In this document: positions 4,054 to 62,636 of the stretch, piece after piece | Position numbering within the stretch: the first letter of the stretch is position 1 | Layout: the number at the start of each line of letters is the position of its first letter | Source of the DNA: Eledone cirrhosa | Taxonomy: Eukaryota | Direction of reading: 5' to 3' | Assembly: GCA_964016885.1 (NCBI GenBank) | Contig: OZ024743.1 | Location: forward strand, 346,890,001 to 346,954,000 | Length of the DNA: 64,000 nt | Translations under genes and position numbers: made by a program | The notes under the pieces: generated by a model | Told to the model about the DNA's origin: nothing | Seen by the model: only the letters and a program-made list of their open reading frames with translations | Databases searched by the model: none

Positions 4054-4819
4054 GTATATATATATGTATATATGTATATATATATATATGTATATATATA
4101 TATGTATATATGTATATATGTATATTTGTACATGTAAGTGTGTATATGTATGTATCTGTATATATGTGTGTGTGTGTGTGGTAAGCTTGTCTAGTGGGAG
4201 CTAATGTGAGAATTTGGTCATGTTGTGTGGTTTGAATCACTTTACTACAGGTTCGTGTGGTTTTACTGTGAGAACTGTAACGTGTTGTGAGCTGGGATGT
4301 GACACAGTGTTCTTTCATCTTTACCGACTCAATAAAAATGAGCACACAGCACTTTTTCTAAGTTTAGACTTGTTCAAGGACACCCAGGAAATGATGATTC
4401 AGTTTATTTTTGTAGACAGCAGGCTTTAAAAATATCCCGACGGTGAACATTTTCTGCTGCTCATTGTTTGATGAGTTTTTGCTTGCTGGACTTTTCGTAC
4501 TTTAGTTTGCGGTACAGACTTTAAACATGCTCGGTGATGAAAGCAATCAAGAAAGATAACACTTATATCCAGTCTATACTCTCTGACGCACGCACCCGCA
4601 TATGTGTGTGTGTGTCTGTCTGTGTACACTCAGAAATTGAGGCGGATTTATGTATCTATAGACATGTCTATTTGCGTCCATATTTTTGTACATGTATATA
4701 CTATATGTATTATACGCTTATGTTTATATATATGATTGTGTGAGTGTGTGTGTGTAAACAAATTAGGTGGCTTACAACCATTAGGGAAACAGAATGTGTG
4801 CTTTCCAAAGCAAATGATG

Positions 4820-5010
4820 ATAATAGTTGTTTCAGCTTTTGGCACAAGGCCAGCAGTTATCCCAGTGTATTACTGGTACTTTATTTTATCTACCCCCGTA
4901 AGGATGAAAGGCAAATTTAACCTCGGTAGGATTTGAACTCGGAACGTAAAGGGCCGTAACTCTATGTTGCAAAGTATGGTCTCGAAGCGTCTACCGATTC
5001 TGCCAAATCA
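4820..5010 (-). mobile_element. SINE family 1
   Basis: GGCACAAGGCCAGC...CCCCGTAAGGATGAAAGGCAAA...GGATTTGAACTC...CTACCGATTCTGCCAA, reverse complement of the 380-598 copy. Confidence 0.75.
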
Positions 5011-8035: not shown

Positions 8036-8037
<2 letters not shown>

Positions 8038-9717
8038 GAAGAACCTACGGAATAGGGAACTTATATACTTACCATCCGACAAAGGTTAAGAATTTTGCGT
8101 CATCTCTCAAGCCACATACAATAACCTAGCCTTTGAACACCTAAGCGACAATGAATTATACACAGTGATCCCGGACATGACTGCAGCCCAGATCGAAAAA
8201 CAGACCAACTCCATTTGGTTCGATATCTGTAGGAGAAGACAACTCCCAAATAAAGTTAAGCTCAACTACACCACTAGAAATAGCAGACTGCCCACATTCT
8301 ACCACCTCATCAAGACCCACACGAATAGTACTAAGACGCAAATAAGACCCATCGTCTCTAGCATAGAAGGACCCCTATACAACATTTCCTGGCTCCTCTC
8401 CCAGGTCCTCAAGCCTCTACTCTCCACCTTTCCCGGGCATGTCAGTAGCTCCGACGAAGTTATACGTAGACTAAACCAACTCCAGCCAGAACAACTTAAA
8501 CTAAATAAATACGCCTTTAGCCTCGACATTGTCTCCCTCTACACTACAGTCCCCGCTCATCCAGCTGTCGATTTATTGACGGACTGCGTGGTCGCAGAGG
8601 ACATCCACTGCTACGGCCTCCACCCGACGGACATACACCAGCTTTTGTCCTTCACAGTAGACAACACATACATCACCTTCCACCACCACACATACAGGCA
8701 GACAACAGGATTACCCATGGGATCCAGCCTATCGGGCCTGCTGGCCATCATCTACATGAACCAGCTAGAATGCCGAGCCCTCAACACCTGCCATTCCCAT
8801 ACCGTCTTCACCCGATATGTAGATGATATACTCATCCTTACATCATCCAGTGAGGAGGCAGATAAAATATACACAACATTCTCCAGCATGGACGCCAGTA
8901 TAAAGTTCAGCATGGAACACCCCGATGACCGCGGATCGCTATCCCTACTGGACTTCCAACTCAGGGTAACAGAGGAAGACAACATCCACACCTGCTTCTA
9001 TAAAAAAAGCCGCCAGCAGGGACCTGTTCGTACATTTCAGATCGGCCCTCCCACTCGGTGCCAAGTTCGGATACATAAGGAACGAACTGGCACGTATCCG
9101 GAACAAATGCACCGACGCTAGAGACCGAGACACACACCACACATTTCCTGGAAGTACTCAAACTGAACGGATACACGACTTCCACCACAAACCGTGCCAG
9201 AAAGAACAGAGGACATCGCACCCGAGGCACTAAAACTTGCTTCCTGAAGCTCCCACACTTCAGTTAAGAAACAACAACAGCCATCCGCAGAGCTATCAGA
9301 CGAGAGGGACTAGATATCCAACTGGCCCACTCAGGTGCTTCTCTACGCGGATAGCTAACCAAAAGACACTCCACCAGACATGACAACTGCTGCAGACTAC
9401 CCATCAACGACACAGACATATGCCACCAGGCTTACGTCGTATACAGACTAGAGTGTGACAAATGCAACAACTTCTACGTAGGTAGCACCACCAGGCCACT
9501 CCACATAAGAATAAAAGAACACCTCAATACTAACGTTTCCTCATTCAAGAAACACCTAGCTAAATGCAAAAACACCGACAAAACCATAACAGTTAGGATA
9601 GAAACTAAGGAAAGAAACCTCGGCAATCTTAGAATTAAGGAAGCACTAATTATAGATAAAACACAACCACCAATCAATAATAGACTAGAACTCAACACCC
9701 AATTTATAACCAGATAG
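8036..9717 (+). pseudogene. Disrupted Penelope-like RT + GIY-YIG endonuclease ORF
   Basis: Motifs PSDKG, IKTH..RPIVS, SLDIVSLYT, GLPMGS, RYVDD, LLDF, FYKK, then VVYRLECDKCNNFYVGSTTRPLHIRIKEH...IKEAL..PPIN; stops at 8087, 9265, 9352; frameshifts near 9008 and about 9135. Confidence 0.9.
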
Positions 9718-10106
9718 AGCTTCTAGCCCCATATTTACACCCCCACACACACGCACGCACACACACACACACACACGCTTACACCTCCACTTATTCTCTC
9801 TAACACATACTCACACAAAACCAGTTCTAACACCAGATAACACCTATCCCCCACATTTACGAATAGACATATCTTCTCACACTCACACACACACACTCAC
9901 ATACTTACACCTTCATGCATTCTCCCACACACTTAAACAGGCATGTATAAAAAAAAACAAAAAAAAAAACTCTTTTAAAGGGAGGCTACTCTTTATCCAC
10001 CTAATTTTAACTCTTTGACATTAGAGATAGAACAGATACTCTATACCATTTCCTGTCAGCATGACTTGGCAAGCTATTTAGGACACTGGTTTGAGAGTTT
10101 TACTTC

Positions 10107-10141
10107 CCTCTGAAGAAGAGATATTATCTCGAAAATTAAGG
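10107..10141 (+). ncRNA. Minimal type I hammerhead ribozyme in the Penelope 3' end (pLTR)
   Basis: CCT-CTGAAGA-A-GAGAT-ATT-ATCTC-GAAA-AT-TA-AGG: intact core, 5-bp stem II, palindromic AATT stem III, stem I CCT/AGG; Penelope pLTRs are known to carry such minimal hammerheads. Confidence 0.75.
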
Positions 10142-10302
10142 ACATTTAAATAAATCTAAGGTAAAAGACTAATTGTCAACAATATCTTTTGCATTTGCAT
10201 TCTTTATTCTATGTCCATACCTGCATTGTTTTGGCTATACTATACATATACAAACGTTTATACCCCATTACACAATGCTTCAAGTGAACTATAACCTCCT
10301 CC

Positions 10303-10371
<69 letters not shown>

Positions 10372-11694: not shown

Positions 11695-12311
11695 TATTAC
11701 ACGGCTCAGAAATATTTTTTTCTTTGAGCTATTTCATTGTAAAGGAATGCTTGAGTTTTGAACTCAATACACTTAATATAATTTCTCCTTACGTTGAGCT
11801 GGTAGTAGCTCCATATATACGGCTGTTATTTCTAGCAGTACGAGTATGAGGCTGGCTAGAAACTGTAAAACCATGTGCGTTAAACGGTCTTTTAAAATAT
11901 TTAGAAGTGAAGCATATCAATTTGTTCAGGGTGTTTACTGATGTGAGCTGGACATGATATCCTTACACTTATTCATCTCGAAACACATTTGGATTTTAAA
12001 GTTTAAACTTATCTACGGAACAGATATGATTTTGAAATTTAAATTTGTCTAAACACCATGGCCATTTGCCAATACTGTTTATTGATTTATTATTTTAAAT
12101 CGAGATAGGCAAACTGTAATATTATAATTAGTATATTTCATTCTAGCTAACTTAATTTCTTTTACAATATAAACACAGATATGTTGGTATTTGTGTTTCA
12201 TCATATATATTAATTTATATTTACTTGTATTACACGGCTCAGAAATATTTTTTCTTTGAGCTATTTCACTGTAAAGGAATGCTTGAGTTTTGAACTCAAT
12301 ACACTTAATAT
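11695..12311 (+). mobile_element. 533-bp unit with 84-bp terminal redundancy (family I, retrozyme-like)
   Basis: TATTACACGGCTCAGAAAT...CAATACACTTAATAT occurs at 11695 and again at 12228; homologous to the 556-bp unit at 49718-51146; degenerate hammerhead at 11934-11993 (CTGATGT-GAG..CTC-GAAA). Confidence 0.65.
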
Positions 12312-15300: not shown

Positions 15301-15655
15301 TAGAAAGTAAGGTTTTTTTTACAAAATGATAAATAACCGAGGTGTCCTACACGAGTAGAAGTATAAAGAAAAAGGGATGAAATCGAAAATGCAACTGAAG
15401 TCCCACTTTTCTAAAAATATATATATATATTTGGTTCCTCCACCGGTTTCGCAGTTCCTCTGCTTTCCAAAAGGTGAGTTGAGATGGAGGGTCTGAGGTT
15501 TTTCTCACATCTGATGTGAGAAAAACCACAGACCCTCCATCTCAACTCACCTTTTGGAAAGCAGAGGAACTGCGAAACCGGTGGAGGAACCAAATAGATA
15601 TATATATTTTTAGAAAAGTGGGACTTCAGTTGCATTTTCGATTTCATCCCTTTTT

Positions 15656-15662
<7 letters not shown>
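15301..15662. mobile_element. Fold-back element D: near-perfect 301-bp palindrome (15362-15662, centre 15512) plus 60-bp tail
   Basis: Centre CTCACATC-T-GATGTGAG; each arm has variant hammerhead CCTT-TTGGAAA-GCAG-AGGAA-CTGC-GAAA-CCGG-TG-GAGG (15550-15587 +, 15437-15474 -); TA flanks. Confidence 0.85.
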
Positions 15663-15711
<49 letters not shown>

Positions 15712-15772
15712 ATATATGTATGTATATATGTATATATATGTATGTATATATGTATATATATGTATATATATG

Positions 15773-15831
<59 letters not shown>

Positions 15832-15860
15832 ATATATATTTATATGTATATATATATATG

Positions 15861-15928
<68 letters not shown>

Positions 15929-15933
<5 letters not shown>

Positions 15934-16973
15934 GGAAAAAATGAAACGAAAATTCATTTCCCACTCTTAGTACGGCTGTTACTTAAATATAAGTATGTAC
16001 ACGTACATACATATATGTATACAGACGTACAGTAGTATGTATATATATATATACATGCATGCACACATATATATATATATGTACGTATGGATTCACCGAA
16101 CATTTATTATAATGCTCGGTGTGTTTGTTAACAAACATCCCGTATTAAGCGGTAGTGTCCAGCAACCATCGTTGCTCGTTTGTTCAACACTGACAAAGGA
16201 ACGCTCTACCAGTTTCAAGCTTATAACTATGGTCAGCAACGTATACCTTCCTGCCAGATTGTTGAACGTATATACTTACCTTATGCATATTAACGGCTGA
16301 GTAGCCGAATTTGCATATCGAGTGGGTTAATAAGCTGGGTGAAAAAAAAAAGATAAACGGAAAAAATGAAACGAAATTTCATTTCCCACTCTTGGTCCGG
16401 CTGTTACTTAAATATAAGTATGTACACGTACATACATATATGTATACAGACGTACAGTAGTATGTATATATATATACATACAAGCACACATATATATATG
16501 TACGTATGGATTCACCGTACATTTATTATAATGCTCCGTGTGTTTTAAACAAACATCCCGTATTAAGCCGTAGTGTCCAGCAACCATCGTTGCTCGTTTG
16601 TTCAACACTGACAAAGGAACGATGTACTAGTTTCAAGCTTATTAGCTATCGTCAGCAACGTATACCTTCCTGCCAGATTGTTGAACGTATATACTTACCT
16701 TATGCATATTAACGGCTGAGTAGCCCGATTTGCATATCGAGTGGGTTAATCGGCCGGCTGCACCGAAAACGATAAACGGAATAAATGAAACAACATTTCA
16801 TTTCCCACTCTTAGTACGGCTGTTAGTTAAATATAAGTATGTCCACGTACATACATATATGTATACAGACGTATAGTAGTATCTATATATATATACATAC
16901 ATGCACACATATATGTATGAACGTATGGATTCACCGAACATTTATTATAATGGTCGGTTTGTTTGTAAACAAA
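15929..16973 (-). mobile_element. Tandem retrozyme-like array, family E (units 425 and 419 bp plus a partial unit)
   Basis: Units start TAAACGGAA at 15929, 16354, 16773; one minus-strand hammerhead per full unit (16202-16241 degenerate, 16620-16660 intact core). Confidence 0.8.
16620..16660 (-). ncRNA. Minimal type I hammerhead ribozyme
   Basis: CGTTG-CTGACGA-T-AGCT-AATA-AGCT-T-GAAA-CTAG-TA-CATCG. Confidence 0.75.
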
Positions 16974-19694: not shown

Positions 19695-20377
19695 GCGCAC
19701 AGACGCATATGTGCGTGTGTATGTGTATAGAGGAAGAAAGTGTATTTGTGACGTCACTAATCCAGGATCTCGGTTTTCAAAATGTTGGAGCTTGAAGGAT
19801 TCGAAATAACTATGTAGTGCATCAACAACTAAGGGAACACCCAATATGTGTGTGTGCATATGTGTCAATAAATGCATATTAGTGAATATGTTTTTGTATT
19901 TGATCATATGATTAATGTAACTCAGATAGTGTGTATGTCTACTTTTGTACATATGTTGAAGTTGTGCAAGAGTAAAGCTGATAGCTGGGTGTTGGTAATG
20001 ATTTGATATATTGGCATGTATTGAGTTTTATAAGAGCCTTGGACGTATATTGTTTTATTATTAACAACCTAAGTGCATGTTGTTGTCATGGTAACATATC
20101 TTAGGGAGTTAAAGAAACACACGCTCTTATTTACAAGTGGTATATATATATATATATATTACTTGTTTCTTCTTTCGGCACAATGCCAGCAATTATCCCA
20201 GTGTATTACTAGTACTTTATTTGATCGACCCCGTAAGGATGAAAGGCAAAGTTAACCTCGGCAATGCTGCTGTACAAGCCTTATTTTGTTTATATATGTA
20301 TGTATACACACACCAACACACAAACATATATATGTGTGTGTGTATCGGTGTATATATGTATATATATATATATATAT

Positions 20378-25821: not shown

Positions 25822-28800
25822 GTGAACGACCATATCGCTGCAACGTATGCAACATAAAGTTCTCCTGCAAAAGTGCGCTGCGTGTGCATTTCGGAAAGCA
25901 TAAATCGCACTATAAATTGGCTCATCGGCCTGCTCCTGCTCACTCTGTAAGGAATCCAGCACTGTTACCGTCACGGTTTCAATTCTCACCAATGGGAATT
26001 GCTGTTTCATCAGTACCAATAAGTCTCTCAGCAGCCGGAATACCGATCACAGCTTGCAATTCTCCGATTGTGTCATCTGCGATAAGCCAAGCTTCCTTGC
26101 TAGGCTCGTCGTTGATGTCACAGCACAGAACAATTCCTCATGATGGAGGAGTTGTTCTGGTTGGTAGTAATAGTAGTGGTGGTAGTAGTAGTGTAATCAG
26201 TACAGGGGGTGCTACTGCTCTAGCTGCTGCTACCGCCGCTGCTGCTGCTGCTGCTGCTGCTGGCAGTGGTACCGAAAGTCCGGCTCTTAAACAGGAAAAT
26301 CCTGATACCAAATTAAGTGAAGATCCGCCCACTTGCGCCTCACCAAGCGACAATAATGTCAACAATAATAATAATAATAACTCTGTGAACAATATTGAGA
26401 TACCGATTCCATCTTCTACACCAAATGCTACTGCTGCCACCGTCGCATCTGTTCTTCCTTTAACAAAATTAGCGAGACTGACTTGTTCCAGTCCAGAGAG
26501 TACCTTAAATTTATCTTCGGACTCAGTTGCAGCTTCCATCTCATCCATCATTACTGCTGCCAATAGTTCAGTAGTAACGAGCACATCCTCTACTTTGGAC
26601 CATATACCTTTGAGTGCTTCACGTCATTTTCACATACTACCACCGATGTCAACGGTTCCACCGCCTCCTCCCCTTGCAGCATTGCCGCCCAACTTTAACC
26701 CTGCTGCTCACCCTTCGCAAATGAACAACACTGATTTAAGGACTATGCCAGGTGGGCTCTTCCCCCCCGCCAAGCATATTGAACCTGGAGAAAATGTTGA
26801 AGATTACATGGAAGTAAACACATCTGAAACGACCAAACTTCAGAAATTTGTTGAAAACATTGAACATAAGTTGAGTGATCCCAATGAATGTGCGATTTGT
26901 CATCGTGTGTTGAGCTGCAAGAGTGCCCTGCAAATGCACTATCGTATCCACACTGGAGAGCGACCTTTCCGTTGTAAGTTATGTGGACGTGCCTTCACCA
27001 CGAAGGGCAACCTCAAGACACATATGGGTGTGCACCGTGCCAAGCCGCCAACCCGGCTCACCCATCAGTGTCCAGTGTGTCACAAGCAGTTCACCAACAT
27101 TCTCGTGCTACAGCAGCACATTAGGGGTCATACAGCGGACACTTACCCAACAATGCCTCCTAGTCTCTATCGAACTAGTGAATGGCACCCTAAGCCGTTT
27201 GATCTGAGGCCTTCTATTGAACCAAAGGAATTAGATTTGAGCAAGACATCCTCAAGCTTTCTGTCTCGTTCTATTCAGCCTTCGACAACGTCACCATCGG
27301 TGTCTCAGACATCGACATCACCCTTGTGCTCACCTTTGGAAAACCACAAAATAAGTCCAACTTCCCTGGACCTAGCTCCAAAGAATTTAGAAAGCACAAC
27401 TAACCTGACAGAGGCAAGCAATGAAATGACTGAAGGAGCCACTAATGTCATAACTAGAACCAGTAACAGTCTAGATAGTAGCAATGTTATGGATGAGAAT
27501 ATGATGGAAGAAGGTGTGATTGACTCTGAAAATATGGACGAAAACCTGGTTGATACTTGCAACCTCGATGATACAGGTGATATGGAAGACAGTGCCCTAG
27601 ATGCAAGTGGCATAGAACCCAACCTGATGGATACTGAAGAGATAAATGAAAAATCAGAGAACAAAGAGGAGAAAATCGACGGGGAAGACACGAACAAAGA
27701 AGAAGAATGGATGGATACCAAATCGAAAGAAGAGGAATGGATGGATTCCAAGTCGAAAGAAGAAGAATGGATGGAGACCAAGTCGAAAGAAGAGGTATGG
27801 CCCGAACCCGAAGATTCTAGAACGTCGAGCGAGGCTGGCCATGAGAATCTTGAGGAAGAAAGACCGAGTTCTCTTGCTTCTGCTGCATCGCATGAATCAC
27901 AAGATTTGCATAAAAACCATGACTTCAATCCAGCATCAAGCTATGAGACACAGATTACATCTGTGATAACAAGCGGTTTTGTTCCTCCATCGTCAACCTC
28001 ACTTGCCGCTTTAGAAGCTCGAGTCCGAGCAATCAGTTCAAATAACCCTCTTAGTATGACCGTAGGCTCCAAGTTCAACATGCGACTCCATTCCCGTGAC
28101 TTCAACCCAGCCCATAAACAATTTTCACATCATCTTCCACACAGTGCTTTCCTCAACGGAGACGGATCTCCAGGAAATTCACCTCATAGCCAGTTATATA
28201 CCTCCGAGGGAAAATCCGAAAGCAATGGAATGAAAGATCCAATTGGTGCCCATTCTGTGTCTCTTCATATGCGTCCTGACGTAGCGGGTTTCCCCATGAG
28301 TTCCGTGTTTCCTTTAGCGCCAGCACTTGACTTGCGTCCCAAAAACGTAGAGGGCAAAACAAACACAACGTGTTATATTTGCTTTAAAACGTTTGCTTGC
28401 AAAAGTGCTCTCGATATTCACATTAGGAGTCACACTAAAGAGAGGCCGTTCAAATGTGAAGTTTGTGATCGCAGTTTCTCAACTAAAGGTAATATGAAGC
28501 AACATATGCTGACACACAAAATAAGGGACCTACCATCACAGGCATTCAAAAAAAACTCCAGCAAGCTTGACTCGGCATCTATCAAGAGGGAACCTACGAT
28601 CGAATTGGACAGTTCTCGCGTGTCCGAGTCGCTTGCGTCTACCAACAACAGTGTGAGCCCTAGTAATTTGAAATCTAGTAATACACTTAATAATGTCAGT
28701 AACAATAGCAACAACAACAACAGCAACAACAGTGATAACACCAACAGTAACAGCAACAATAACGGTCAAACTTCATTAAATACTAGTGTGAGTCAAGGAG

Positions 28801-30338
28801 AACATTCCTTGCCCCTAACTCCTACCAGTGAGGGGAGTAATACATCCCCTTTTGTACGACGCCCGTCTCCAAAACATACCTGCAGTGTCTGTCAAAAACA
28901 CTTTTCCAGCGCAAGCGCACTTCAAATTCATATCCGTACTCACACTGGCGACAAGCCCTTCAAGTGTAGTATGTGTGCGAAAGCATTTACCACTAAGGGA
29001 AACCTTAAGGTTCACATAGGGACCCATATGTGGGGAAACAACCCATCTAGGCGAGGTAGACGAATGTCCATCGAACCGCCTTTTCTTATTGGCCCTAAAG
29101 AGCACCCTTACTTATCTCCTTACCATAGGTCCCCGGAGATTTTCTTTCATCAGTATCCCCATTTCTTAAATGGAATCTCCCCGAAGATGAACGAGATATC
29201 TGTTATTCAGAGTTTAAACGGAAGCCTGAACCACATGCCCCACAACCTAACCGAGTCGCATTTGTCGAGCAAAGAAGATCCTCCACGTAGTGATAGTGGT
29301 GGAGGTCAAAGCAGCATTGATAGTGGACGTAAGAGCACGGAGAGTCTACCATCGTCTTGGCCCAGTGATAGTATGCCTGGCTTAGGAACAGCTCATCATC
29401 CTCTACAGCATCCGCTTCATATGCAACAACAGCAGCAACATCAGAACAGTTTAAGTCCCAATAGTACTAGCATTATTACTAGTGTGGCACCTGTAGTTAA
29501 CAACAGTAACATCAACAACACAAGCAGCAGCAACAGTCCAAATAACAACATAATTATTAACAGAAATTGCAATATGATTAATAACAGTGCGGCTATTGAT
29601 GTTTTAAGTAGCAACGTAAGCAACGATCTACAAATGTCGACCGGTACAGATGGTGAATTAGATCTCAGCATGAAATCAGCTTCCCTGTTATCATCAGCGT
29701 CATCGTCATCCTCTTCATCTTCCTCTTCATCTTCATCTTCATCATCATCGACATCTTTAGTGACCGGTGGTGGTGGTGATGCTGGTTGCGCTAGTGGTGG
29801 TGGTGTTGTCGACAGCAGTGCTGCTGCTATTGCTGCTGCTGGCGGCGGTGGTGTTTGTGGTAGTGTGAGCGGTAGCGTTGTCGTCGGCAGTGTATTAAAC
29901 GGAAGTGGTGATGGTGGTGGTGTAGCTGTCGGTGTCGGTGAAAGTAGTGTTGTTGTTGTCGGCAGCGGCGGCGGCGGTGCTGGAAGCAACAGTAGTAGTA
30001 GTAGTCATAGTAGTAGTATCGGTGGCGGTGGTGGTGGCGCTGGTATTGGCAGTGGCAGTGCTGGTAGCAGTGGTGCTATTTCCAATGCCGGAAGCCCCGT
30101 CTCGTCCCCACTGGCAGCACCTCTTTCCGTCTCACCCCCAACAGTAGTTACCACTCCAAACACTGACGCATCTCTTTTACCGGAAGCTCACCAGAACATT
30201 GCTTCCTGGTCGTGGCGAACACTTTGCCATATTTGTAACCAGGTCTTCCCTACCTCCCCAGCATTAGAACACCACATGCGACTTCACCACGCCACTAATC
30301 CAACCGAAGAACCTCTACGGACTTCTGTCTCAAATTGA
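25822..30338 (+). CDS. sall: Spalt-like (Sall/salm) C2H2 zinc-finger transcription factor, large terminal coding exon
   Basis: TTTTGCAG acceptor at 25821; SAL boxes FTTKGNLK (twice) and FSTKGNMK; conserved [21 protein letters not shown] and NEISVIQ motifs; 9 fingers here plus 1 in the upstream exon; stop TGA at 30336-30338; N-terminus not found in the window. Confidence 0.95.
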
Positions 30339-37677: not shown

Positions 37678-38900
37678 TATATATATGTATGTATTATATA
37701 TATGTATGTATGTGTGTATATATGTTTATGTTCTGACATGCACACATACATACACACCAACAAAAAAGAAATCTAAACCCTCTTAGTCCGTGTGTTTGAC
37801 TGTTTACCCTCATATTACAATTTATGTATTTTGGGTGAGTGATATATATAGCGTGCTTTTATCTCGATTGCAAGGTTGTGAGATTTTGTGCGAAATGAAC
37901 AAAAAATAAATATATAAACATTTAAAGAGTAATAGTTGATACACATTGTGAAAGATAAAGAAAAAAATGACAAAAAATAAAGAGAAATATGAAGCAGATC
38001 TTAAGAAGAACTTACATATGTATGTATATGTTGTATATGCATTTATATACATCATAGGTGTTCTAAAAAAAAAAAAAGATTTTCTATTGAAACAATTATG
38101 AAAAGTTTGGCTCCATTAAATTACATTTTGATTTATAAGCAAAAATACAGGAACACGTACGTGTGCATACATATACTCATAAGTATATATACATTCGGAT
38201 GATGAACATATATAATGAATAATTGGAAGATAACTATGTATAGATACATCTATACATATATCACAAACACACAAAAACGAAAAAAATGAACAAAACCCAC
38301 AGACATATACATATATATGTATATATATATATATTGGTATATGCATGTATGTATGTATATATGAACACTGTGAAATTCTGTTACAAACAAGTGCGGGTTA
38401 TATATAAACCATTGCGTAGCTATATTCAGCAATCTATTACTTAAATAAAGGAAAATTTGCTCTACCAAATTCATTGAAATGTGTTGGTGTTTTCTGTATT
38501 TTTATGTCATATATTGAAAAAATATCAAAGAAAAACATACCCTTTTCATACATATTCATGTGGCTTTGTAGAATTGGTTATTTCTTCCCTTATCTTTATT
38601 CATTCCTTTCCTTTCTCTCGCTCTCTCTCATTGTATATGTGTGTGTGTATATATATACATAAATGTGTGTCAGTATATATATATATACGGAGAATATAAG
38701 TACATTCATTAAGGAATCCACAAGTCTGTTGAGCTATTGATTCGCGAGTCAGGTCTTATCGTACCTTGAGCTGATCGATCGCGAAACGTGCGTCTCATGA
38801 ATGGTGCTATACTGTTACTTCATTGCTGCTCCTTATTATTATATATGTATATATGCATAAGTGATGTATAAATACGGTTCTTTGTAATGGTAGTACTATT

Positions 38901-39082
38901 TAATTGTTTCTACTTTAGGCACAAGGCCAGCAATTACCCAGTGCATTACTGGTACTTTATTTTATCGACCCCATAAGGATGAAAGGCAAAGTCAACCTCG
39001 GCGGGATTTGAACTCAGATCGTAAAGGGACGTAACTATGCTGGAAAGCATGGCGTCCGACCCTCTACTGATACTGCCAATCC
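38901..39082 (-). mobile_element. SINE family 1
   Basis: GTTTCTACTTTAGGCACAAGGCCAGC...GGCGGGATTTGAACTC...TACTGCCAATCC. Confidence 0.85.
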
Positions 39083-40949
39083 ACATGCACACTAATAATA
39101 TGAAGCTTTGTATAAATAGATACTATCTTATGATATTTCATCTGTAATTATATTATTTGGAAGCAGACTTTAGCAGCCGGTAGCCGGTGTTATATATTTT
39201 CAAGCATTTTTATATTTCATTTAGAATATAATTGCTGTATTTAATTTCTATTGTCTTTTGAAGGCTGCAGAGATTTATTTAGAAGTATATACAATTATTT
39301 CTGTCTATTCGCCCTCAACTACATAGTGTTTTCTGCCATAGAGCCACGACGTCCAAAGCCTTGTGATGAACATCTGTTTGGGAAAACTATTTTTGTTCTT
39401 GTGTCCATCACCCGGTTGAACACCACCATATGGTCCTTGGTTACCGTCGATGTGGGCAACACTGCAATTGTGTTAGCTCTCATGTCTCCGTATAAATTCA
39501 TCCGCTTTACTCGGAGTCTGTGGGGTCGGTGATAAATGTTGTTCTCCTTCATGCGTGTAAACAATTAAATGTAATGAAAAACATCATCACTTTATCAGAA
39601 CTAATTATGTGGTACAATATGTGACTTAGCTCCTTCAGAGCTGTCTGGAGAATGCAATGCTGTGTTGTACTTAATATTGCTGGAATAATCTGAGTTGTTA
39701 CAAAAAATGTACTCGTACACAATATATAAATATATGATGTTTGTTTTCTTGAAATTATCGTGAATGCATTTTAAAAATTCTCTTTTTTTCAGCTACCTTC
39801 AATTTTCGTTTATAAGTTAGAGCTTATAACATTTGCATTTTATATTTTGTTGAAGCTAATTGCTTCCGTATGCAGAAACAACGTGAATTTACGTGTTTTA
39901 TTCTCACTTCACTATATTTAGCTTTCCACTAATATTCAATTTCTCTGGAAATAGTCTAGCCTAAAAACGATAAAGTAAACATAAGTCATGTCCTGGTCTT
40001 CATATAAAAAGACCATACCTCTAAAATGTGTTTCCTCTGAGAAATCATTATTCCTTCATCCCGAAGAGCATGTGTCCTACATGCTGTCGTCATTCCACAT
40101 GTAGGATGTTGTAAATCAGATGCTATTCATTTTTGGAAGAAGAAATATGTTGGTTTGATTAGTATTACATTCGACGGGTTCTATATGATTGGTTGTATAT
40201 GGGTGAATTGTCACACTATGAGAATTGTTATTGTTTCAGATAGAATATCATTGCATTTGTCCCGGTTCTTTGCACTCTGAATTTTTCATTTCATCCAGTC
40301 GGAGTTGATAGAATAAAGTACCTGACCATGGAGGTAAATTAGTTGAATTGTAAGAATATCGGATGAAATGCCTTAGAGTGTCTGCTCACTTTACGTTCTG
40401 AGATCAAGCTTCATCCAAGAAACGCAAATTATAAATGCTGCAATGGCGAATTGGGGCCATATACACTACAGTCAAGCGATTATGGGTTCTGAAATTAGAA
40501 TCCATGTTTATTCATAATGTCGCCAGCAATATGTATGTATGGGCCCTTGAGTCCTTATTGAGTCACAGGGGCGCCATATATATATATAGCATATTTTGTG
40601 GATTTAAATACATATGAGTTCCATTCCTTGTAGTGGAAGATTTGATCCCATAACATGACTGGTATTGTATTTTTCGTCCTCGAAAAGAAGAAAGGCAAAA
40701 TTGACCTAATCGAATTTCGAATTTAAATAGCCGGATTAAATATTGCGAAGAATTTTATCTGATGTTCTAACCACTCTGCTAATTCCTTGCCTCTACCTGT
40801 AATTTTGACACTAGATATTCATAATACTTACGCCATGTACCAAATGTATTGATTGATATTGCGACTATGACAAATCGTTTCTAATTTTTCTCCATGCAAT
40901 ATATTTCCACCAATATAATTTTGTATATCCGTAATAAGGCATCATTAAT

Positions 40950-41136
40950 TGTTTCTACTTTAGGCACAAGGCCAGCAATTACCCAGTGCATTACTGGTAC
41001 TTTATTTTATCGACCCCGTCAGGATGAAAGGCAAAGTCAACCTCGGCGGGATTTGAACTCAAATCGTAAAGGGACGTAACTATGCTGGAAAGCATGGCGT
41101 CCGACCCTCTACCTATACTGCCAATTCACCGCCATT
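40950..41136 (-). mobile_element. SINE family 1 with 16-bp target site duplication
   Basis: Same consensus; ATAAGGCATCATTAAT at 40934-40949 and 41137-41152. Confidence 0.9.
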
Positions 41137-41229
41137 ATAAGGCATCATTAATAAATACTTGTAACACGTGTATTTGAAAATTGATTTTGCCTGTCTACAA
41201 ATTGGTAGATTTCTTTTGAAAATAATAAT

Positions 41230-41618
41230 AATTGTTTCTATTTTTGGCACAAGGCCAGTAATTACTCAGTACATACTGGTACTTTATTTTATCGACCACG
41301 TAAGGATGAAAGGCAAAGTTAATCTCGGCAGGATTTGAACTCAGATCATAAAGGGACGTAAATCTATGCATCAAAGCATGGTGTCCGACTCTCTACCGAT
41401 ACTGCCAATCCACAATAATGATTTCTAGTATAGGCACAAAGCCAGTAATTTAAGGGGGAGGGGAAAGTCAGTTAAATCAACCCCAGTACGTTACTGGTGC
41501 TTTATTTTATCGACCCCGTAAGGATAAAAGGCAAAGTTAAACTCCGCGGGATTTGAACTCAGACCGTAACTCTATGCTGCAAAGCATGGTGTCCGACTCT
41601 CTACCGATACTGCCAATC
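41230..41618 (-). mobile_element. Two adjacent SINE family 1 copies (about 41230-41412 and 41415-41618)
   Basis: Consensus repeated head to tail. Confidence 0.8.
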
Positions 41619-43030: not shown

Positions 43031-43215
43031 TAATTGTTTCTACTTTTGGCACAAGGCCAGCAATTATCCCAGTGCATTACTGGTACTTTGTTTTATCGAC
43101 CCCATAAGGATGAAAGGCAAAGTTAACCTAGGCGGGATTTGAACTTAGATCATAAAGGGTCGTAACTCTATGCTGCAAAGCATGGTGTCCGACCTTCTAC
43201 CGATACTGCCAATCC
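43031..43215 (-). mobile_element. SINE family 1
   Basis: Same consensus. Confidence 0.85.
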
Positions 43216-43864: not shown

Positions 43865-44020
43865 AACGAAGGAAATGTGGTAAGGAACCAGGTGGACCAT
43901 AACTCACCAAAGTACTCAATACTTGAGGTAGTAGAGTGGGTAATAGGAACCAGTAATAGGAACGAGTCCAGAATTAGCCGTCGAAACGCCTTGAGCCCAG
44001 CTGTCGGGGTCTTACTGGTT

Positions 44021-44023
<3 letters not shown>
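43865..44023. mobile_element. Family G mini fold-back element (internally deleted) between (TA)n
   Basis: AACGAAGGAAATGTGGTAAGGAACCAGGTGGA...; shares sequence with 48481-48653 and 62424-62594; TAGCCGTCGAAAC half hammerhead. Confidence 0.7.
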
Positions 44024-44071
<48 letters not shown>

Positions 44072-48480: not shown

Positions 48481-48482
<2 letters not shown>

Positions 48483-48653
48483 CGAAGGAAGTGTGGTAAG
48501 GAACCAGGTGGATCATAACGTACCAGAGTACTCGCTACTTTGGGTAGTAGAGTGGGTAATAGGAAAAGTGTCAGCACCGCGACAGCAGAGCTCTAAGCCG
48601 ATCGACGGCTATTTTTGGAAATAGCTCTGCCGTCGGGGTCCTGACTCGTTTCC
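48481..48653. mobile_element. Family G mini fold-back element
   Basis: GTCAGCACCGCGACAGCAGAGCT..GACGGCTATTT-TTGG-AAATAGCTCTGCCGTCGGGGTCCTGAC; TA flanks. Confidence 0.75.
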
Positions 48654-48703
48654 TATATATATATATTTTCCTATATATATATATCTTTTCTTATTTATAT
48701 ATA

Positions 48704-49099
48704 TAAATATGTATACGTACATACATATATGTATACAGACGTACAGTAGTATGTATATATATACATACATGCACACATATATATATATGTACATATGGAT
48801 TTACCGAGCATTTATTATAATGCTCGGTTTGTTTGTAAACAAACATCCCGAATTAAGCTGTACAGTGTTTAGCAGCCATCGTTGCCCTTTTGTTCAACAC
48901 TGACAAAAGAACGATGTACTAGTTTCAAGCTAATTAGCTATCGTCAGCACCGTATACCTTCCTGCCAGATAATTGAACGCCTGAAAGTATATACTTTCCT
49001 TATGCATATTAACAGCTGAGCAGCCTAATTTTCATATCGAGTGAGTTAATCGGCCGGGCGCACCGAAAACGATAAATGGAAAAAATGAAACGAAGTTTC
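48704..49099 (-). mobile_element. Family E retrozyme-like monomer, circularly permuted relative to 15929
   Basis: Homologous throughout to the 15929-16973 units but starts at AAATATGTATACGTAC and reads through the unit junction (GATAAATGGAAAAAATGAAACG). Confidence 0.8.
48912..48952 (-). ncRNA. Intact minimal type I hammerhead ribozyme
   Basis: CGGTG-CTGACGA-T-AGCT-AATT-AGCT-T-GAAA-CTAG-TA-CATCG; stem I fully paired with one GU. Confidence 0.8.
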
Positions 49100-49196
49100 T
49101 GTATACATATTGCGTCCAGAAATAGCCGTCGAAACGGCTTGAGCTCTGCCATCGGGGTCATACTTTTATATATATATATATATATATTCCTTTTTT

Positions 49197-49300
<104 letters not shown>

Positions 49301-49309
49301 CATATATGT

Positions 49310-49502
49310 ATGAAAAACCACAAACCCTCCATCTCAATTCAACTTTTGAAAAGCACAAGAACTGCGAAACCGGTAACGGAACCAAATGAATATATTTTTT
49401 TTTTAAAGACTCCAGTTGCATCTTCGATTTCATCTTTTTTCTTTATACTTTCACTCGTGTAGGACACCTCGATTTTTTTTCATTTTGTAAAAAAAAACTC
49501 AC

Positions 49503-49510
<8 letters not shown>
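49310..49510 (+). mobile_element. Single-arm copy of family D with variant hammerhead (49342-49379)
   Basis: GAAAAACCACAAACCCTCCATCTC..TTGAAAA-GCACAAGAACTGC-GAAA-CCGG-TA..GTGTAGGACACCTCG, matches the reverse complement of 15301-15505; TA flanks. Confidence 0.75.
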
Positions 49511-49552
<42 letters not shown>

Positions 49553-49555
<3 letters not shown>

Positions 49556-51141
49556 ATATAATTAATAAATATCATAAATTCTGATTTAACCTTTATTACA
49601 CACATGGTAATGCAGTAACTTTTGATTGCCTACTTTAAGCTGGATAGATACAACTGACTTGGAGTATCCTTAATTGCTTACACCTGCTTATGAACGATAT
49701 ATATATATATATATATATACATTAAAATATATGATAAACACAAAACGTGTTTGCATTGCAACAGATAGTCAGCTATTAATGAAATAAACTAATTAAAGTG
49801 AATACAATTTGTCTGTCTCGATATAAGTCAATAAAGACAATCTTATATTGGCAACTGCCATGATTCCTGGACAGATTTAAATTTCAAAATCCAAACCTGT
49901 TCTGTAGACGAATTTGAACCTCGAAACCTAAATCCGTTTCGCAATGGTGCTATGTGAATTTAAAAAATAAAGAGAATCGAAATGGAATTGAAATAAAAAG
50001 TGAAATATCCAAATCTTCTGTGCATATCAACAGGAATCCAGTAGAAATTAGTACATTTCACATCAAAAAATTTTGCGAGTCTGACTACACGTGTATAGCC
50101 AGACCAAACTAGCCGTCCCGCATTAACGGTGCTAGAAATAACAGCCATATATGCGGGATTAAAAATCAGCTCTAACATTTAAGGAGCAATATACTATATA
50201 ATATTTTGAGAATAAGCTCTCAGTCCTTTACAATAATTAAGCTCCAGGAAAGGGTCATTTCCGAGCAGTTAAATACATTAAAATATATGATAAACACAAA
50301 ACGTGTTTGCATTGCAACAGACAGTCAGCTATTAATGAAATAAGCTAATTAAAGTGAATACAATTTGTCTGTCTCGATATAAGTCAATAAAGACAATCTT
50401 ATATTGGCAACTGCCATGGTTCCTGGACAGATTTAAATTTCAAAATCCAAACCTGTTCTGTAGACGAATTTGAACCTCGAAACCTAAATCCGTTTCGCAA
50501 ATGTATTTAACTGCTCGGAAATGACCCTTTCCTGGAGCTTAATTATTGTAAAGGACTGAGAGCTTATTCTCAAAATATTATATAGTATATTGCTCCTTAA
50601 ATGTTAGAGCTGATTTTTAATCCCGCATATATGGCTGTTATTTCTAGCACCGTTAATGCGGGACGGCTAGTTTGGTCTGGCTATACACGTGTAGTCAGAC
50701 TCGCAAAATTTTTTGATGTGAAATGTACTAATTTCTACTGGATTCCTGTTGATATGCACAGAAGATTTGGATATTTCACTTTTTATTTCAATTCCATTTC
50801 GATTCTCTTTATTTTTTAAATTCACATAGCACCATTGCGAAACGGATTTAGGTTTCGAGGTTCAAATTCGTCTACAGAACAGGTTTGGATTTTGAAATTT
50901 AAATCTGTCCAGGAATCATGGCAGTTGCCAATATAAGATTGTCTTTATTGACTTATATCGAGACAGACAAATTGTATTCACTTTAATTAGTTTATTTCAT
51001 TAATAGCTGACTGTCTGTTGCAATGCAAACACGTTTTGTGTTTATCATATATTTTAATGTATTTAACTGCTCGGAAATGACCCTTTCCTGGAGCTTAATT
51101 ATTGTAAAGGACTGAGAGCTTATTCTCAAAATATTATATAG

Positions 51142-51188
<47 letters not shown>

Positions 51189-51556: not shown

Positions 51557-52747
51557 TATATTATATATATATATATATATATATTAATGAGACCAACGAA
51601 AGAGGGATCGTTAGCGATATGGTCTATCGTAACCTAATGCTGTCACATTTGTCTCTGTATGAAACTATTTACATTGCAACAGACAACTCTCCCTTAAAAT
51701 GTGTTTGGATTATCTTTGTGCTGTTGTATGGGAAACTTTATCCTGACTAATTTAAATTATTCTCTGTCACCATATAAACTTTACCCAATACATACCACCA
51801 ATTCTTTTTTCGCCAATTCTTCCATGCCACTGTCACCACAGTTATGATACTGTTATCATAACTTTACTGTCATATTCTGACATTCTTAAATACAACACTA
51901 GAAATTCTAACTGGGATATGGGGGACTAATTAGTCTCATCTCAATGAAGATCCTTTCTAGAAGCAGGAACTAACCACCAATCAACAGAATTTCTTAAATC
52001 AAAGACAATAGCTGTCCCGACAAGCTGCAGGCTGTCGAAATTCTTCAGCTAGCACGGGATCTGGATTAGCCAATGAGAAACATAAATATTTAGATGCTCT
52101 CAACCCCTTATCAAACAGGCGGTTACATCTGAAGTACCATGAGCATTTTATTCCGCCTGCAAAACTTAAGTTAGTAGATATCTATTCGAAAACTATAAAC
52201 GGGTGGATTAGCAGCGTTCATTCTGCAGCATTCTGCATCTAGCATTGCGTGTAAGGAGAGATTTGATGTCTGTGAGTAAATGAACCCGCAAAAACAATAA
52301 CAACTCATAATACATATTTGTTTCTACTTTAGGCACAAAGCCAGCAATTGCCCAGTTCATTACTGGTACTTTATTTTATCGACCCCGTAAGGATGAAAGG
52401 CAAAGTCAACCTCGGATAATACATATTGAAAGAAAGACATTGTTAAAGTCAAATTATATGCTTGTCATATACTCTTTTAATATTTTACCAGTTCCAGCCA
52501 TCCGTGTATTTCGAGGAAGATTTGTTATATTCAATTAATAATTTGTAAAAACTCTTAGATTTATTTCTCGTTCATTTTTGGTAAACAGGACTGCAATGTT
52601 AAAATATTTCGTCCCACTTCTGCAAACTAGATTTTGACTGAGTTCCACTACCAATAGAGATTTCGAATGTTGTAGATGGTTAAAATGATTCTACACCGAT
52701 ATACATACATACATACATACATATATATATATGTATATATATATATA

Positions 52748-60999: not shown

Positions 61000-62225
61000 T
61001 TTATTAGTTCAATGATTTACGATCGTTTCTGCGGGTCGATTGTTCATAATGGAACGATATATTGATGAATTGATAGTGGTTATGCCACCACATATCACTA
61101 ATCTTCATATTCAAGATCCATCTCACCTTCTTCCTCAGAATCATTGAACTATAATCTTTATTTGTAAGATATGTAAGAAAGCTGAAACGCATCAAAATAG
61201 ATAAATATGGATAAAAATAACCGGATTAGATACGCCTATTAAAGCTATTTAATCTCAGCAGCAGTTTCGTAAGCAATCTTCGTAAGGAATTATATGAATC
61301 TGGATATTTGGGAGGATATTAATTTAATGGAATAAATTGTAGTGGTGTTAGATGTTAGGTAGGTTTGTATAATCTGAAAGTCTTTAGCATTTTGTGATTG
61401 GTGTTAAAAGTTAGGTAGGTTTGTATGATCTGAAAGTCTTTAGCATTTTGTGATTGGTGTTAAAAGCTAGGTAGGTTTGTATGATCTGAAAGTTTTTAGC
61501 ATTTTGTGATTGGTGTTAAAAGTTAGATAGGTTTGTATGATCTGAAAGTCTTTAGCATTTTGTGATTGGTGTTAAAAGCTAGGTAGGCTCGTATGATCTG
61601 AAAGTCTTTAGCATTTTGTGATTGGTGTTAAAAGCTAGGTAGGTTTGTATGATCTGAAAGTCTTTAGCATTTTGTGATTGGTGTTAAAAGCTAGGTAGGC
61701 TCGTATGATCTGAAAGTCTTTAGCATTTTGTGACTGCTTCATATTAGAAGAGGCTCTTCGGAGATCAGGCTTTGGAAAATTTTCTGAGAGCATAACGCAC
61801 ATCTCGTATGCTCTCCCTGATACTTCTTCGGGGTCCATTTTTCCAATAGTAACATCAAAGAAATTCCCATATGTTTTCTCTGTCCATTGCTCATTCTCGA
61901 ATTCTATTATAGTTTTCTTGGCATGTAGAATTACAGCTATCTCAGTCTTGGTGATATCAAATCTTCTTCTAGACAAAACAAGTGCCAGATTGAGTAATAT
62001 TGGATGAATAATAGCCGTCCATATCGAATTGTTGAAAGCAAGTCACTTCCCTCGCTTTTAGTTTAATATAACATTCGATCGGTGATTTTCCAAAGTGGGA
62101 GTTTCAAATACTTCTTCACTTGTAGTATAATCCTGTCCAAAGATTACTTGGCTAATTCTTCCGATGCCGAATGTTGACGGGTTGAGTAGTCTTATAGAAG
62201 GATTGCTAAGGGAAACTATTTTATG
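61000..62225 (-). pseudogene. Highly decayed Penelope-like RT remnant (different lineage from 8036)
   Basis: Minus-strand peptides LLNPSTFGIGRIS, FQQFDMDGYY, ILHAKKTII..W..FFDVTIG resemble Penelope-like RT motifs; boundaries approximate. Confidence 0.55.
61355..61733. repeat. 56-bp minisatellite, about 6.8 units
   Basis: (T/C)TAGGTAGGTTTGTATGATCTGAAAGTCTTTAGCATTTTGTGATTGGTGTTAAAAG at 61355, 61411, 61467, 61523, 61579, 61635, 61691. Confidence 0.95.
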
Positions 62226-62392
62226 GTCCTTGAAGCTAAACTACCGAGACAAGTAACATATCATGGCATAACCACTATCAATTTGTCAATATATCGATTT
62301 ATCATGATCAATCAACCCCCTGAAAGGATTGCAAACCAATAAACACATTGACCTTTGCCTGTGGTTTTACTTTATCTTTATTGTTGAAAGCA

Positions 62393-62423
<31 letters not shown>

Positions 62424-62427
<4 letters not shown>

Positions 62428-62594
62428 AGAGTCAGGAGCCCGACGACAGAGCTCCGGTTTTTCGACAGCTAGATCCGATTTAGCTGTTGAAATGGACGGA
62501 TCTCAGCCGTCGAGGTCCTGACCCTTTTCCTATTACCCACTCTACTAACCTAAGTATCGAGTACTCTGGTGCGTTATGGTCCACCTGGTATCTT
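62424..62594. mobile_element. Family G mini fold-back element (opposite orientation to 48481)
   Basis: GAAAAGAGTCAGGAGCCCGACG..TTTCGACAGCTA-GATCCGATT-TAGCTGTTGAAA..GCCGTCGAGGTCCTGACCCTTTTCC plus tail; TA flanks. Confidence 0.75.
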
Positions 62595-62636
62595 ATATAT
62601 ATATATATATATATATATGTATTCTTCTTTCTTTTT

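What the first reader, a model, noticed from the sequence alone, without database searches (positions are those of the whole stretch)
15929..16973. Family E: tandem ~420-bp retrozyme-like array, with a circularly permuted copy at 48704-49099
Seen: about 2.5 head-to-tail units, one minus-strand hammerhead per full unit, spaced about 419 nt. The distant copy starts at a different phase, crosses the unit junction and has an intact ribozyme with a different stem I 5' strand (CGGTG/CATCG). Known: metazoan non-LTR retrozymes are tandem repeats whose minimal hammerheads cleave as dimers and yield circular RNAs. Inference: this family produces a ~420-nt circRNA that is reverse transcribed by rolling around the circle.
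Basis: partly seen in the sequence, partly recalled or inferred. Interest (0 to 1): 0.8.

Follow-up and report, generated by a model that had tools for sequence, protein, structure and literature searches.

The report
Hammerhead retrozyme with fixed Penelope ends
This 420-base repeat is an aged copy of a non-coding element with a predicted self-cutting RNA motif, present about 30,000 times in the genome, and its copies end at two fixed points, so it was likely pasted in by a Penelope-type jumping-gene enzyme, probably copying an RNA circle, rather than inserted at random phases as first proposed.

Summary
The array (2.5 x 419 bp) and three minus-strand type I hammerhead motifs are real, but only one of the array's two motifs keeps its catalytic core. 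The family is large: 29,646 exact ribozyme 16-mers against 2 for the control. The distant copy is not a random circular permutation. In ribozyme sense, copies end at two fixed sites about 59 nt apart (A, B) that run into (TA)n, while 5' ends are scattered. The distant copy ends at A and the array at B. Over half of sampled insertions are head-to-head two-armed, and 35 of 36 classifiable pairs combine one A end with one B end. This matches the Penelope-like (PLE) tail footprint, and an adjacent PLE fragment shows it too. Reverse transcription passes through the cut site (1 of 79 arms stops there), and both arms share a haplotype. That fits a circular template but does not exclude an uncut multimer. 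No RNA evidence was available and no partner PLE was found. Verdict: a new member of the metazoan non-LTR retrozymes, likely PLE-mobilised. The scan noted this family before on other DNA (e1-8665316).

The parts
15929..16973 (-). Tandem array, 2.5 units, subfamily E1a, single arm: 5'-truncated at unit position ~69, 3' end at fixed site B. Its segments differ from each other by 4-9%, so an old insertion
16620..16660 (-). Type I hammerhead, intact core CUGACGA/GAAA, 4-bp stem II, palindromic ACUAGU stem III, predicted cut 3' of 16625; one U.U mismatch in stem I
16202..16241 (-). Decayed hammerhead (G8C, stem II deletion, stem III and stem I broken); predicted inactive
   Evidence: G8C abolishes cleavage in a PLE hammerhead (PMC11167929)
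15929..15986 (-). ~59-nt tail between fixed end A (~15987) and fixed end B (15929); forms predicted hairpins
   Evidence: (A=214, B=273 in unit coordinates)
15659..15930 (.). (TA)n-rich tract joined to end B; inferred target site, shared with the neighbouring PLE fragment
16309..16316 (-). Octamer-like ATGCAAAT motif (also 16728-16735), shared by the subfamilies aligned; promoter role untested; motif name recalled
   Evidence: comparison with U2/U6 upstream regions inconclusive
48698..49099 (-). Distant copy, subfamily E1b (8-nt insertion before the ribozyme): 5'-truncated at unit position ~246, crosses the cut site, 3' end at fixed site A into (TA)n
48912..48952 (-). Intact hammerhead with stem I CGGTG/CATCG, the wobble-flipped subfamily form (36 of 367 motifs; CGTTG/CAGCG 227 of 367)
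15302..15659 (.). Context: head-to-head pair of 3' ends of an autonomous PLE family (P3; RT, CX4CxxC linker, GIY-YIG) with one long (tailed) and one short end, the same layout as two-armed E insertions

Best explanation
The repeat is a non-coding hammerhead retrozyme whose copies end at two fixed sites in (TA)n and are likely inserted by a Penelope-like reverse transcriptase/endonuclease supplied in trans, probably copying a circular monomer RNA. Shown: high copy number, fixed 3' ends A and B, scattered 5' ends, head-to-head arms pairing A with B, one haplotype in both arms, no stop at the ribozyme cut site. Inferred steps: multimer loci are transcribed; adjacent minimal hammerheads pair through their ACUAGU palindromes and cut out ~420-nt monomers, which a host ligase would close; the PLE enzyme nicks both strands of a (TA)n tract; one nick primes cDNA at B and the other at A on the same RNA; each cDNA runs a variable distance (tens of bases to several units) and the two cDNA ends join, often over a few overlapping bases. 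Single-arm copies, such as both copies in this window, would be events with one retained arm. Long arrays are further extended later by DNA-level duplication. Confidence is about 0.9 for PLE-type insertion and about 0.6 for the circle.
For: End B: 3,087 exact copies run into AT versus 3,273 that read through. End A: 1,564 versus 6,497; all four controls 0. In 40 position-ordered loci, 48 of 56 arms were classed A or B, a few of them with interrupted tails. In a 3'-anchored sample (79 of 80 loci scored), 46 were two-armed; partner ends were A18/B0/other4 for B anchors and B17/A1/other4/edge2 for A anchors. No tail-to-tail pairs were seen. 44 of 79 arms cross the cut site and 1 ends there; only 18 genomic sites have six non-family bases right before the cut; 241 mapped 5' ends show no wall at the cut or at any transcription start. 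The two arms share rare variants 28 times in 74 loci against a shuffled mean of 1.4, maximum 5; subfamily markers agree between arms in 65 of 67, 53 of 55 and 50 of 50 loci. In the young haplotype (25 loci), segments differ 0.4% within an arm, 0.6% between arms and 2.3% between loci; in L139 two rare variants occur in 9 of 9 segments across both arms. Stem I shows a linked U.G to G.U flip between subfamilies. The genome holds at least 8 GIY-YIG PLE families, some with 844-1,096 aa open frames. A PLE enzyme cuts and extends both strands of AT-rich DNA and starts at two internal RNA sites that bound the tail (PMC11167929).
Against: No RNA, cleavage or circle was observed. No PLE sharing sequence with the unit was found in 50 GIY-YIG loci, 6 divergence-pattern loci or the flanks of 184 family loci. 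In vitro the anole PLE used unprocessed RNA and did not need the ribozyme. Only 1 of 9 Xenopus retrozyme dimers cleaved. Three rare variants (in L014, L016, L189) are shared only by same-rank segments of the two arms, as a linear multimer template would predict. 205 rare variants are unshared against 14 shared in the first set of 33 loci, and conversion between inverted arms could create some of the sharing. The tail is 59 nt, longer than the 30-40 nt described. The array in this window has only one intact core.
Confidence: 0.6

Rival explanations
1. Same PLE-driven insertion at A and B, but the template is an uncut linear multimer transcript. The ribozyme is a passenger or acts later, and arrays grow by DNA duplication.
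For: Unprocessed RNA was the dominant substrate for the anole PLE. Same-rank variant sharing occurs in L014, L016 and L189. DNA-level block duplication is evident in L137, L154, L225 and the 18-23-ribozyme arrays L140-L142. 46 of 56 position-sampled arms hold one ribozyme, so long templates are rarely needed.
Against: There is no 5' wall at a transcription start. Mismatch rates are alike for within-arm, same-rank and other-rank segment pairs (1.7%, 1.7%, 1.8%; 2.2% and 3.0% in the two smaller classes). Young multi-unit arms are near-identical across both arms. The ribozyme core and stem I pairing are kept across three subfamilies.
Confidence: 0.3
2. One reading: cDNA starts at arbitrary points on a circle, so genomic copies are random circular permutations.
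For: Copies cross the cut site intact and 5' ends are spread over the whole unit.
Against: About half of exact passes through site B and a fifth of those through site A are termini; the distant copy ends at A.
Confidence: 0.03
3. A DNA-only repeat (satellite, or a Helitron/MITE-like element with a microsatellite core) that spreads without an RNA step; the ribozyme is a relic or a chance motif.
For: The AT-rich palindromic core drives much of the folding score (z -7); large arrays have expanded at DNA level.
Against: Polar architecture with fixed 3' ends, truncated 5' ends, head-to-head A+B arms and no tail-to-tail pairs; the same layout in an RT-encoding PLE family; a compensated stem I.
Confidence: 0.05

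Closest known systems
Metazoan non-LTR retrozymes (Cervera and de la Pena 2020, PMC7229834, passages and Discussion read; Li, Clavereau and Pollet 2026, 10.64898/2026.07.22.740005, parts 1-3 of 5 read)
   Same: Non-coding, low-GC tandem units of a few hundred bp, one type I hammerhead per unit with a short palindromic stem III, dispersed monomers to multimers, and co-occurrence with PLEs.
   Different: RNA, cleavage and circles are not shown here. The text read describes no fixed two-site 3' ends or A+B two-armed insertions for retrozymes. Li et al. found homology to PLE terminal repeats for 24 of 57 Xenopus families (21 of the 22 matched elements were PLEs); none was found for this family.
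Penelope-like elements with (TA)n bias (Neptune, Hydra, Naiad; Craig et al. 2021, PMC8557442, passages read; Frangieh et al. 2024, PMC11167929, parts 1-2 of 4 read)
   Same: Partial tandems, 5' truncation, an inverted 5'-truncated copy, a tail at one end only, microsatellite targets, and a ribozyme upstream of two internal start sites.
   Different: No ORF; tail 59 nt rather than 30-40; start sites 214 and 273 nt after the cut (about 85-92 nt in the anole element, from the positions given in the paper); both ends sit at a short UUAU that could pair with a TA primer, whereas the anole site was not homologous to the target.
PLE minimal hammerheads (Cervera and de la Pena 2014, PMC4209133, passages read)
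   Same: Type I topology, a bulged base before helix II, palindromic positions 15.2-16.2 and loop 3, predicted dimer action.
   Different: This motif has a 5-bp stem I with a possible extension and a 4-bp stem II, close to the 'canonical' metazoan form described there; activity is untested.

Membership tests
Metazoan non-LTR retrozyme | Type I hammerhead in the repeat unit | tested here: met
   298 of 367 motifs (found allowing one mismatch per half) have both core halves intact; 1 of 2 in this array
Metazoan non-LTR retrozyme | Non-coding tandem units of about 150-450 bp, low GC, no LTR layout | tested here: met
   Units 416-433 (E1) and 466-538 (E2, AT core expanded); no ORF of 120 aa or more inside the array beyond one microsatellite frame at its edge; primer-binding site not scanned
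Metazoan non-LTR retrozyme | At least two consecutive complete ribozymes (Li et al. 'active' criterion) | tested here: met
   Met at family level (L139, L080, L018, L086); not met by the array in this window
Metazoan non-LTR retrozyme | Self-cleavage, as monomer or dimer | not testable with these tools
   Computed only: stems I+II -6.1 kcal/mol, ACUAGU duplex -4.8 kcal/mol
Metazoan non-LTR retrozyme | Linear and circular monomer RNA in tissues | not testable with these tools
   No RNA holder listed; contigs cannot show ends or circles
Penelope-like element (autonomous) | ORF with RT and GIY-YIG endonuclease | tested here: not met
   The unit is non-coding; filed as a non-autonomous client, not as a PLE
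PLE insertion footprint | Fixed 3' ends with a tail at one end only | tested here: met
   two ends 59 nt apart; 35 of 36 classifiable arm pairs are A+B
PLE insertion footprint | 5' truncation, partial tandems, inverted 5'-truncated copy | tested here: met
   46 of 79 anchored loci are two-armed head-to-head; 5' ends scattered
PLE insertion footprint | (TA)n target bias | tested here: met
   Most A and B ends listed run into (TA)n or TA-rich sequence; exceptions are interrupted copies and one (CA)n
Derivative of a known PLE terminal repeat | Sequence homology to an autonomous PLE of the same genome | tested here: inconclusive
   None among 8 families sampled, but only 150 of 10,597 GIY-YIG candidates were scored and 50 loci fetched

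The most novel reading that the evidence does not exclude
A dimeric Penelope enzyme grips one small ribozyme-made RNA circle at two sites 59 nt apart and primes one subunit from each nicked strand of a (TA)n break. Two reverse transcriptases then roll round the same circle and write a mirror-image insertion with one tailed and one untailed end. This would explain the PLE tail asymmetry and the unproven circle-copying step of animal retrozymes in one mechanism.
Probability: 0.4. Interest if true: 0.8.

Novelty: new member of a known kind. Interest (0 to 1): 0.55.

Why it matters
How animal retrozymes enter genomes has been proposed but not shown: circle templates and PLE helpers were suggested in 2020, and a 2026 preprint argued from co-occurrence and sequence homology. 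Here the insertion junctions themselves carry the PLE two-start-site footprint, with a near-strict one-long, one-short rule and one haplotype per insertion. That gives exact, testable predictions (start sites, target, no stop at the cut) for the existing in vitro PLE assay. At roughly 30,000 ribozyme copies the family is also a sizeable part of this genome. The locus itself is an aged copy with no special function evident.

Tried and rejected
(1) Random circular permutation: rejected. (2) Dimer or trimer circles from ABAB/ABCABC arrays (L137, L138, L154, L225; arrays picked for length or alternating spacing): rejected as evidence, because identity is nested rather than star-like, variants are mostly confined to one arm, and whole insertions with flanks are duplicated. 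(3) A stall after exactly one turn, or a 5' wall at the cut or a transcription start: not seen. The apparent peak at position 1 is an artefact: 15 of its 17 entries at position 1 show the ribozyme continuing upstream. (4) RNA-editing scars (lead from e1-8803865): raw A>G 9 of 28 arm-shared variants, T>C 0, background 29 of 383, p=4e-4. After dropping junction-proximal bases, CpG sites, non-contiguous arms and L137, it is 4 of 14 against 21 of 246 (p=0.035) and 4 of 23 against 24 of 309 (p=0.12); a weak hint only. (5) Autonomous partner: not found. (6) snRNA-type promoter: U2 and U6 upstream regions gave only AT-composition matches; the young haplotype often alters the octamer. (7) Expression: no RNA holder listed; four contig sets of unrecorded type were laid and show presence only; whether run X5 is RNA remains open. 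(8) Rfam: no hammerhead model hit. (9) Local folds of 60-nt windows were not better than shuffles (z -0.2 to -1.1), as expected when stem III needs a partner. (10) The arm-chaining script was confounded by the AT core and was replaced. One search had a filter error and was redone. Loci left out: L001 and L030 (self, duplicate) and L011, L028, L140-L142, L153, L154, L181 (duplicates or segmental repeats); L200 was not scored, where L180/L181 are duplicates and two anchors (L178, L233) were mis-set.

Full report
Observation. The window is AT-rich animal DNA from a 3.0-Gb assembly. A cephalopod origin is my inference from composition and from unchecked earlier notes; I did not test it. TRF reports 2.5 units of 419 bp at 15928-16973. 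A scan of both strands found three type I hammerhead motifs, all on the minus strand. The one at 16655-16625 has an intact core, a 4-bp stem II and the palindrome ACUAGU in place of a closed stem III, but a U.U mismatch in stem I. The one at 16236-16207 is decayed, including G8C, a change that abolishes cleavage in a PLE ribozyme (PMC11167929). The one at 48947-48917 is intact. Rfam does not detect them.

Family. A 16-mer across the cut site occurs 29,646 times against 2 for the control; this counts ribozymes, may include related families and misses mutated copies. Cut-to-cut units fall into three subfamilies: E1a, E1b with an 8-nt insertion, and E2 with a longer AT core. The array is E1a and the distant copy E1b. 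Contigs from three other coded organisms cover 220-360 bases of the stretch at about 95% identity, so the family is not confined to this species.

Ends. Numbering the unit from the cut in ribozyme sense, 3' ends fall at position 214 (A) or 273 (B) and run into (TA)n. Genome-wide, 3,087 exact copies end at B against 3,273 that continue, and 1,564 end at A against 6,497 that continue; these patterns cover the E1 forms only. The array ends at B and the distant copy at A. The distant copy is therefore a 5'-truncated insertion with a fixed 3' end, not a free permutation. To avoid bias towards copies that hold the ribozyme, I took 80 loci from the start of the end-anchored lists on contig C1, skipping those already held. 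Of 79 scored, 46 have a second arm head to head. The partner end was A in 18, B in 0 and unclassified in 4 for B anchors; it was B in 17, A in 1, unclassified in 4 and cut off in 2 for A anchors. An earlier set of 68 loci gave 16 A+B and 3 A+A pairs, two of the latter with interrupted tails, and no tail-to-tail pair. Arms overlap in unit sequence and each holds bases the other lacks, so they are neither simple fold-backs nor L1-type twin priming (inference).

Comparison with PLEs. Passages of PMC8557442 describe partial tandems, an inverted 5'-truncated copy, a 30-40 bp tail often at one end only, and (TA)n bias. PMC11167929 shows a purified PLE protein cutting and extending both strands of AT-rich DNA, predicted to be a dimer, and starting at two internal RNA sites that bound the tail. 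This genome has at least 8 GIY-YIG PLE families, with open frames up to 1,096 aa carrying RT, and RT plus GIY-YIG in L101; family P3 has a CX4CxxC linker like Neptune. A P3 head-to-head pair with one long and one short end lies next to the array at 15302-15659, across the same (TA)n tract. No family sampled shares sequence with the unit, so the helper is unidentified.

Template. Self-cut linear monomers would stop cDNA at the cut site. Instead 44 of 79 arms cross it and 1 ends there; only 18 genomic sites have six foreign bases directly before the cut, three of them 1-nt deletions (the pattern captures about 18% of random flanks by arithmetic, fewer if the flank is TA-rich). The 241 mapped 5' ends are spread over the unit with no wall. 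The template was therefore a circle or an uncut multimer. Both arms come from one source: rare variants are shared 28 times in 74 two-armed loci against a shuffled mean of 1.4 (some of the 28 proved to be junction artefacts or subfamily alleles, and 14 remain in 66 loci under the stricter filters), subfamily markers almost always agree, and young insertions differ by 0.4-0.6% inside and 2.3% between loci. Segment pairs differ about equally whatever their rank, as a monomer circle predicts. Against this, three rare variants are shared only by same-rank segments, the anole enzyme preferred unprocessed RNA, and conversion between arms may add sharing. Alternating arrays first looked like dimer circles but are better read as later DNA duplication. 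An A>G skew among arm-shared variants weakened under strict filters. I put the circle at about 0.6.

What is known. PMC7229834 (passages and Discussion) showed linear and circular RNAs for coral, mussel and axolotl retrozymes and proposed circle templates and PLE helpers. The 2026 preprint (parts 1-3 of 5) links retrozymes to PLE terminal repeats by co-occurrence and phylogeny; 1 of 9 dimers cleaved. PMC4209133 (passages) gives the dimer logic. PMC6962438 (passages) lists 235 hammerhead hits in giant squid without analysis. Searches listed no paper on cephalopod retrozymes or on A+B two-armed retrozyme insertions; the library lacks most subscription papers, and Repbase and Dfam could not be checked. 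Earlier unchecked notes of this scan describe the same family and sister families with the same reading; my reading was stated before I saw them.

Verdict. The feature is real and belongs with the metazoan non-LTR retrozymes on every feature testable here; cleavage and RNA are untested. It works like a non-autonomous PLE but is not a PLE, as it has no ORF and no homologous partner was found. This locus is an aged copy that could not release a monomer alone. Interest 0.55.

Noticed in passing
window 8036-10303 (+): 5'-truncated Penelope-like element between two (TA)n tracts: RT (Pfam PF00078, 8090-9121), GIY-YIG (PF01541, 9355-9717), frameshifted, with a minimal hammerhead-like motif near 10110. 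Unrelated in sequence to family E.
   Followed up: partly
window 15302-15659, 49306-49579; L101, L102, L110, L112: PLE family P3 carries a hammerhead variant with U3-A8 in place of C3-G8 (UUGAAAA); families represented by L118 and L120 show the same swap. Standard CUGANGA scans miss these.
   Followed up: partly
window 48482-48655, 43866-44025, 49109-49168, 62388-62622: A second very common short family (F; hits in 44 of the held sequences) is also two-armed in (TA)n with one long and one short end, but its arms seem to start near one fixed point, unlike family E.
   Followed up: partly
window 49099-49168; L167: The 5' end of an E arm joins head to head with a short arm of family F in two places. 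These may be chimeric insertions in which the two priming events used different RNAs, or deletions between neighbours.
   Followed up: partly
window 25822-30338 (+): Large C2H2 zinc-finger coding exon after a clear splice acceptor; spalt/SALL-like by recalled motifs, not by a call. Both E copies are antisense to it; whether they lie in its introns is unknown.
   Followed up: no
L140-L142 (G000 C1 ~53.35-53.37 Mb and 51.77-51.78 Mb): Old satellite-like arrays of 18-23 or more E ribozyme units, mostly 3-10% divergent with nested duplications: a retrozyme turning into satellite DNA.
   Followed up: partly
window 38900-39084, 40945-41129, 41227-41414, 43031-43215, 4818-5006, 20158-20262, 52315-52415: Dispersed ~185-bp repeat family, 82-97% alike; SINE-like by size, not examined.
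   Followed up: no
window 49712-51146: Near-perfect inverted duplication (566 bp at 99.6%) related to 11979-12223; a recent palindromic insertion of another family.
   Followed up: no
window 61343-61733: 7 x 56-bp minisatellite, 95% matches.
   Followed up: no
L200 ~265-295 and ~1640-1670: A PLE of another family is flanked by the same short non-TA sequence on both sides, a possible visible target-site duplication inside (TA)n.
   Followed up: no
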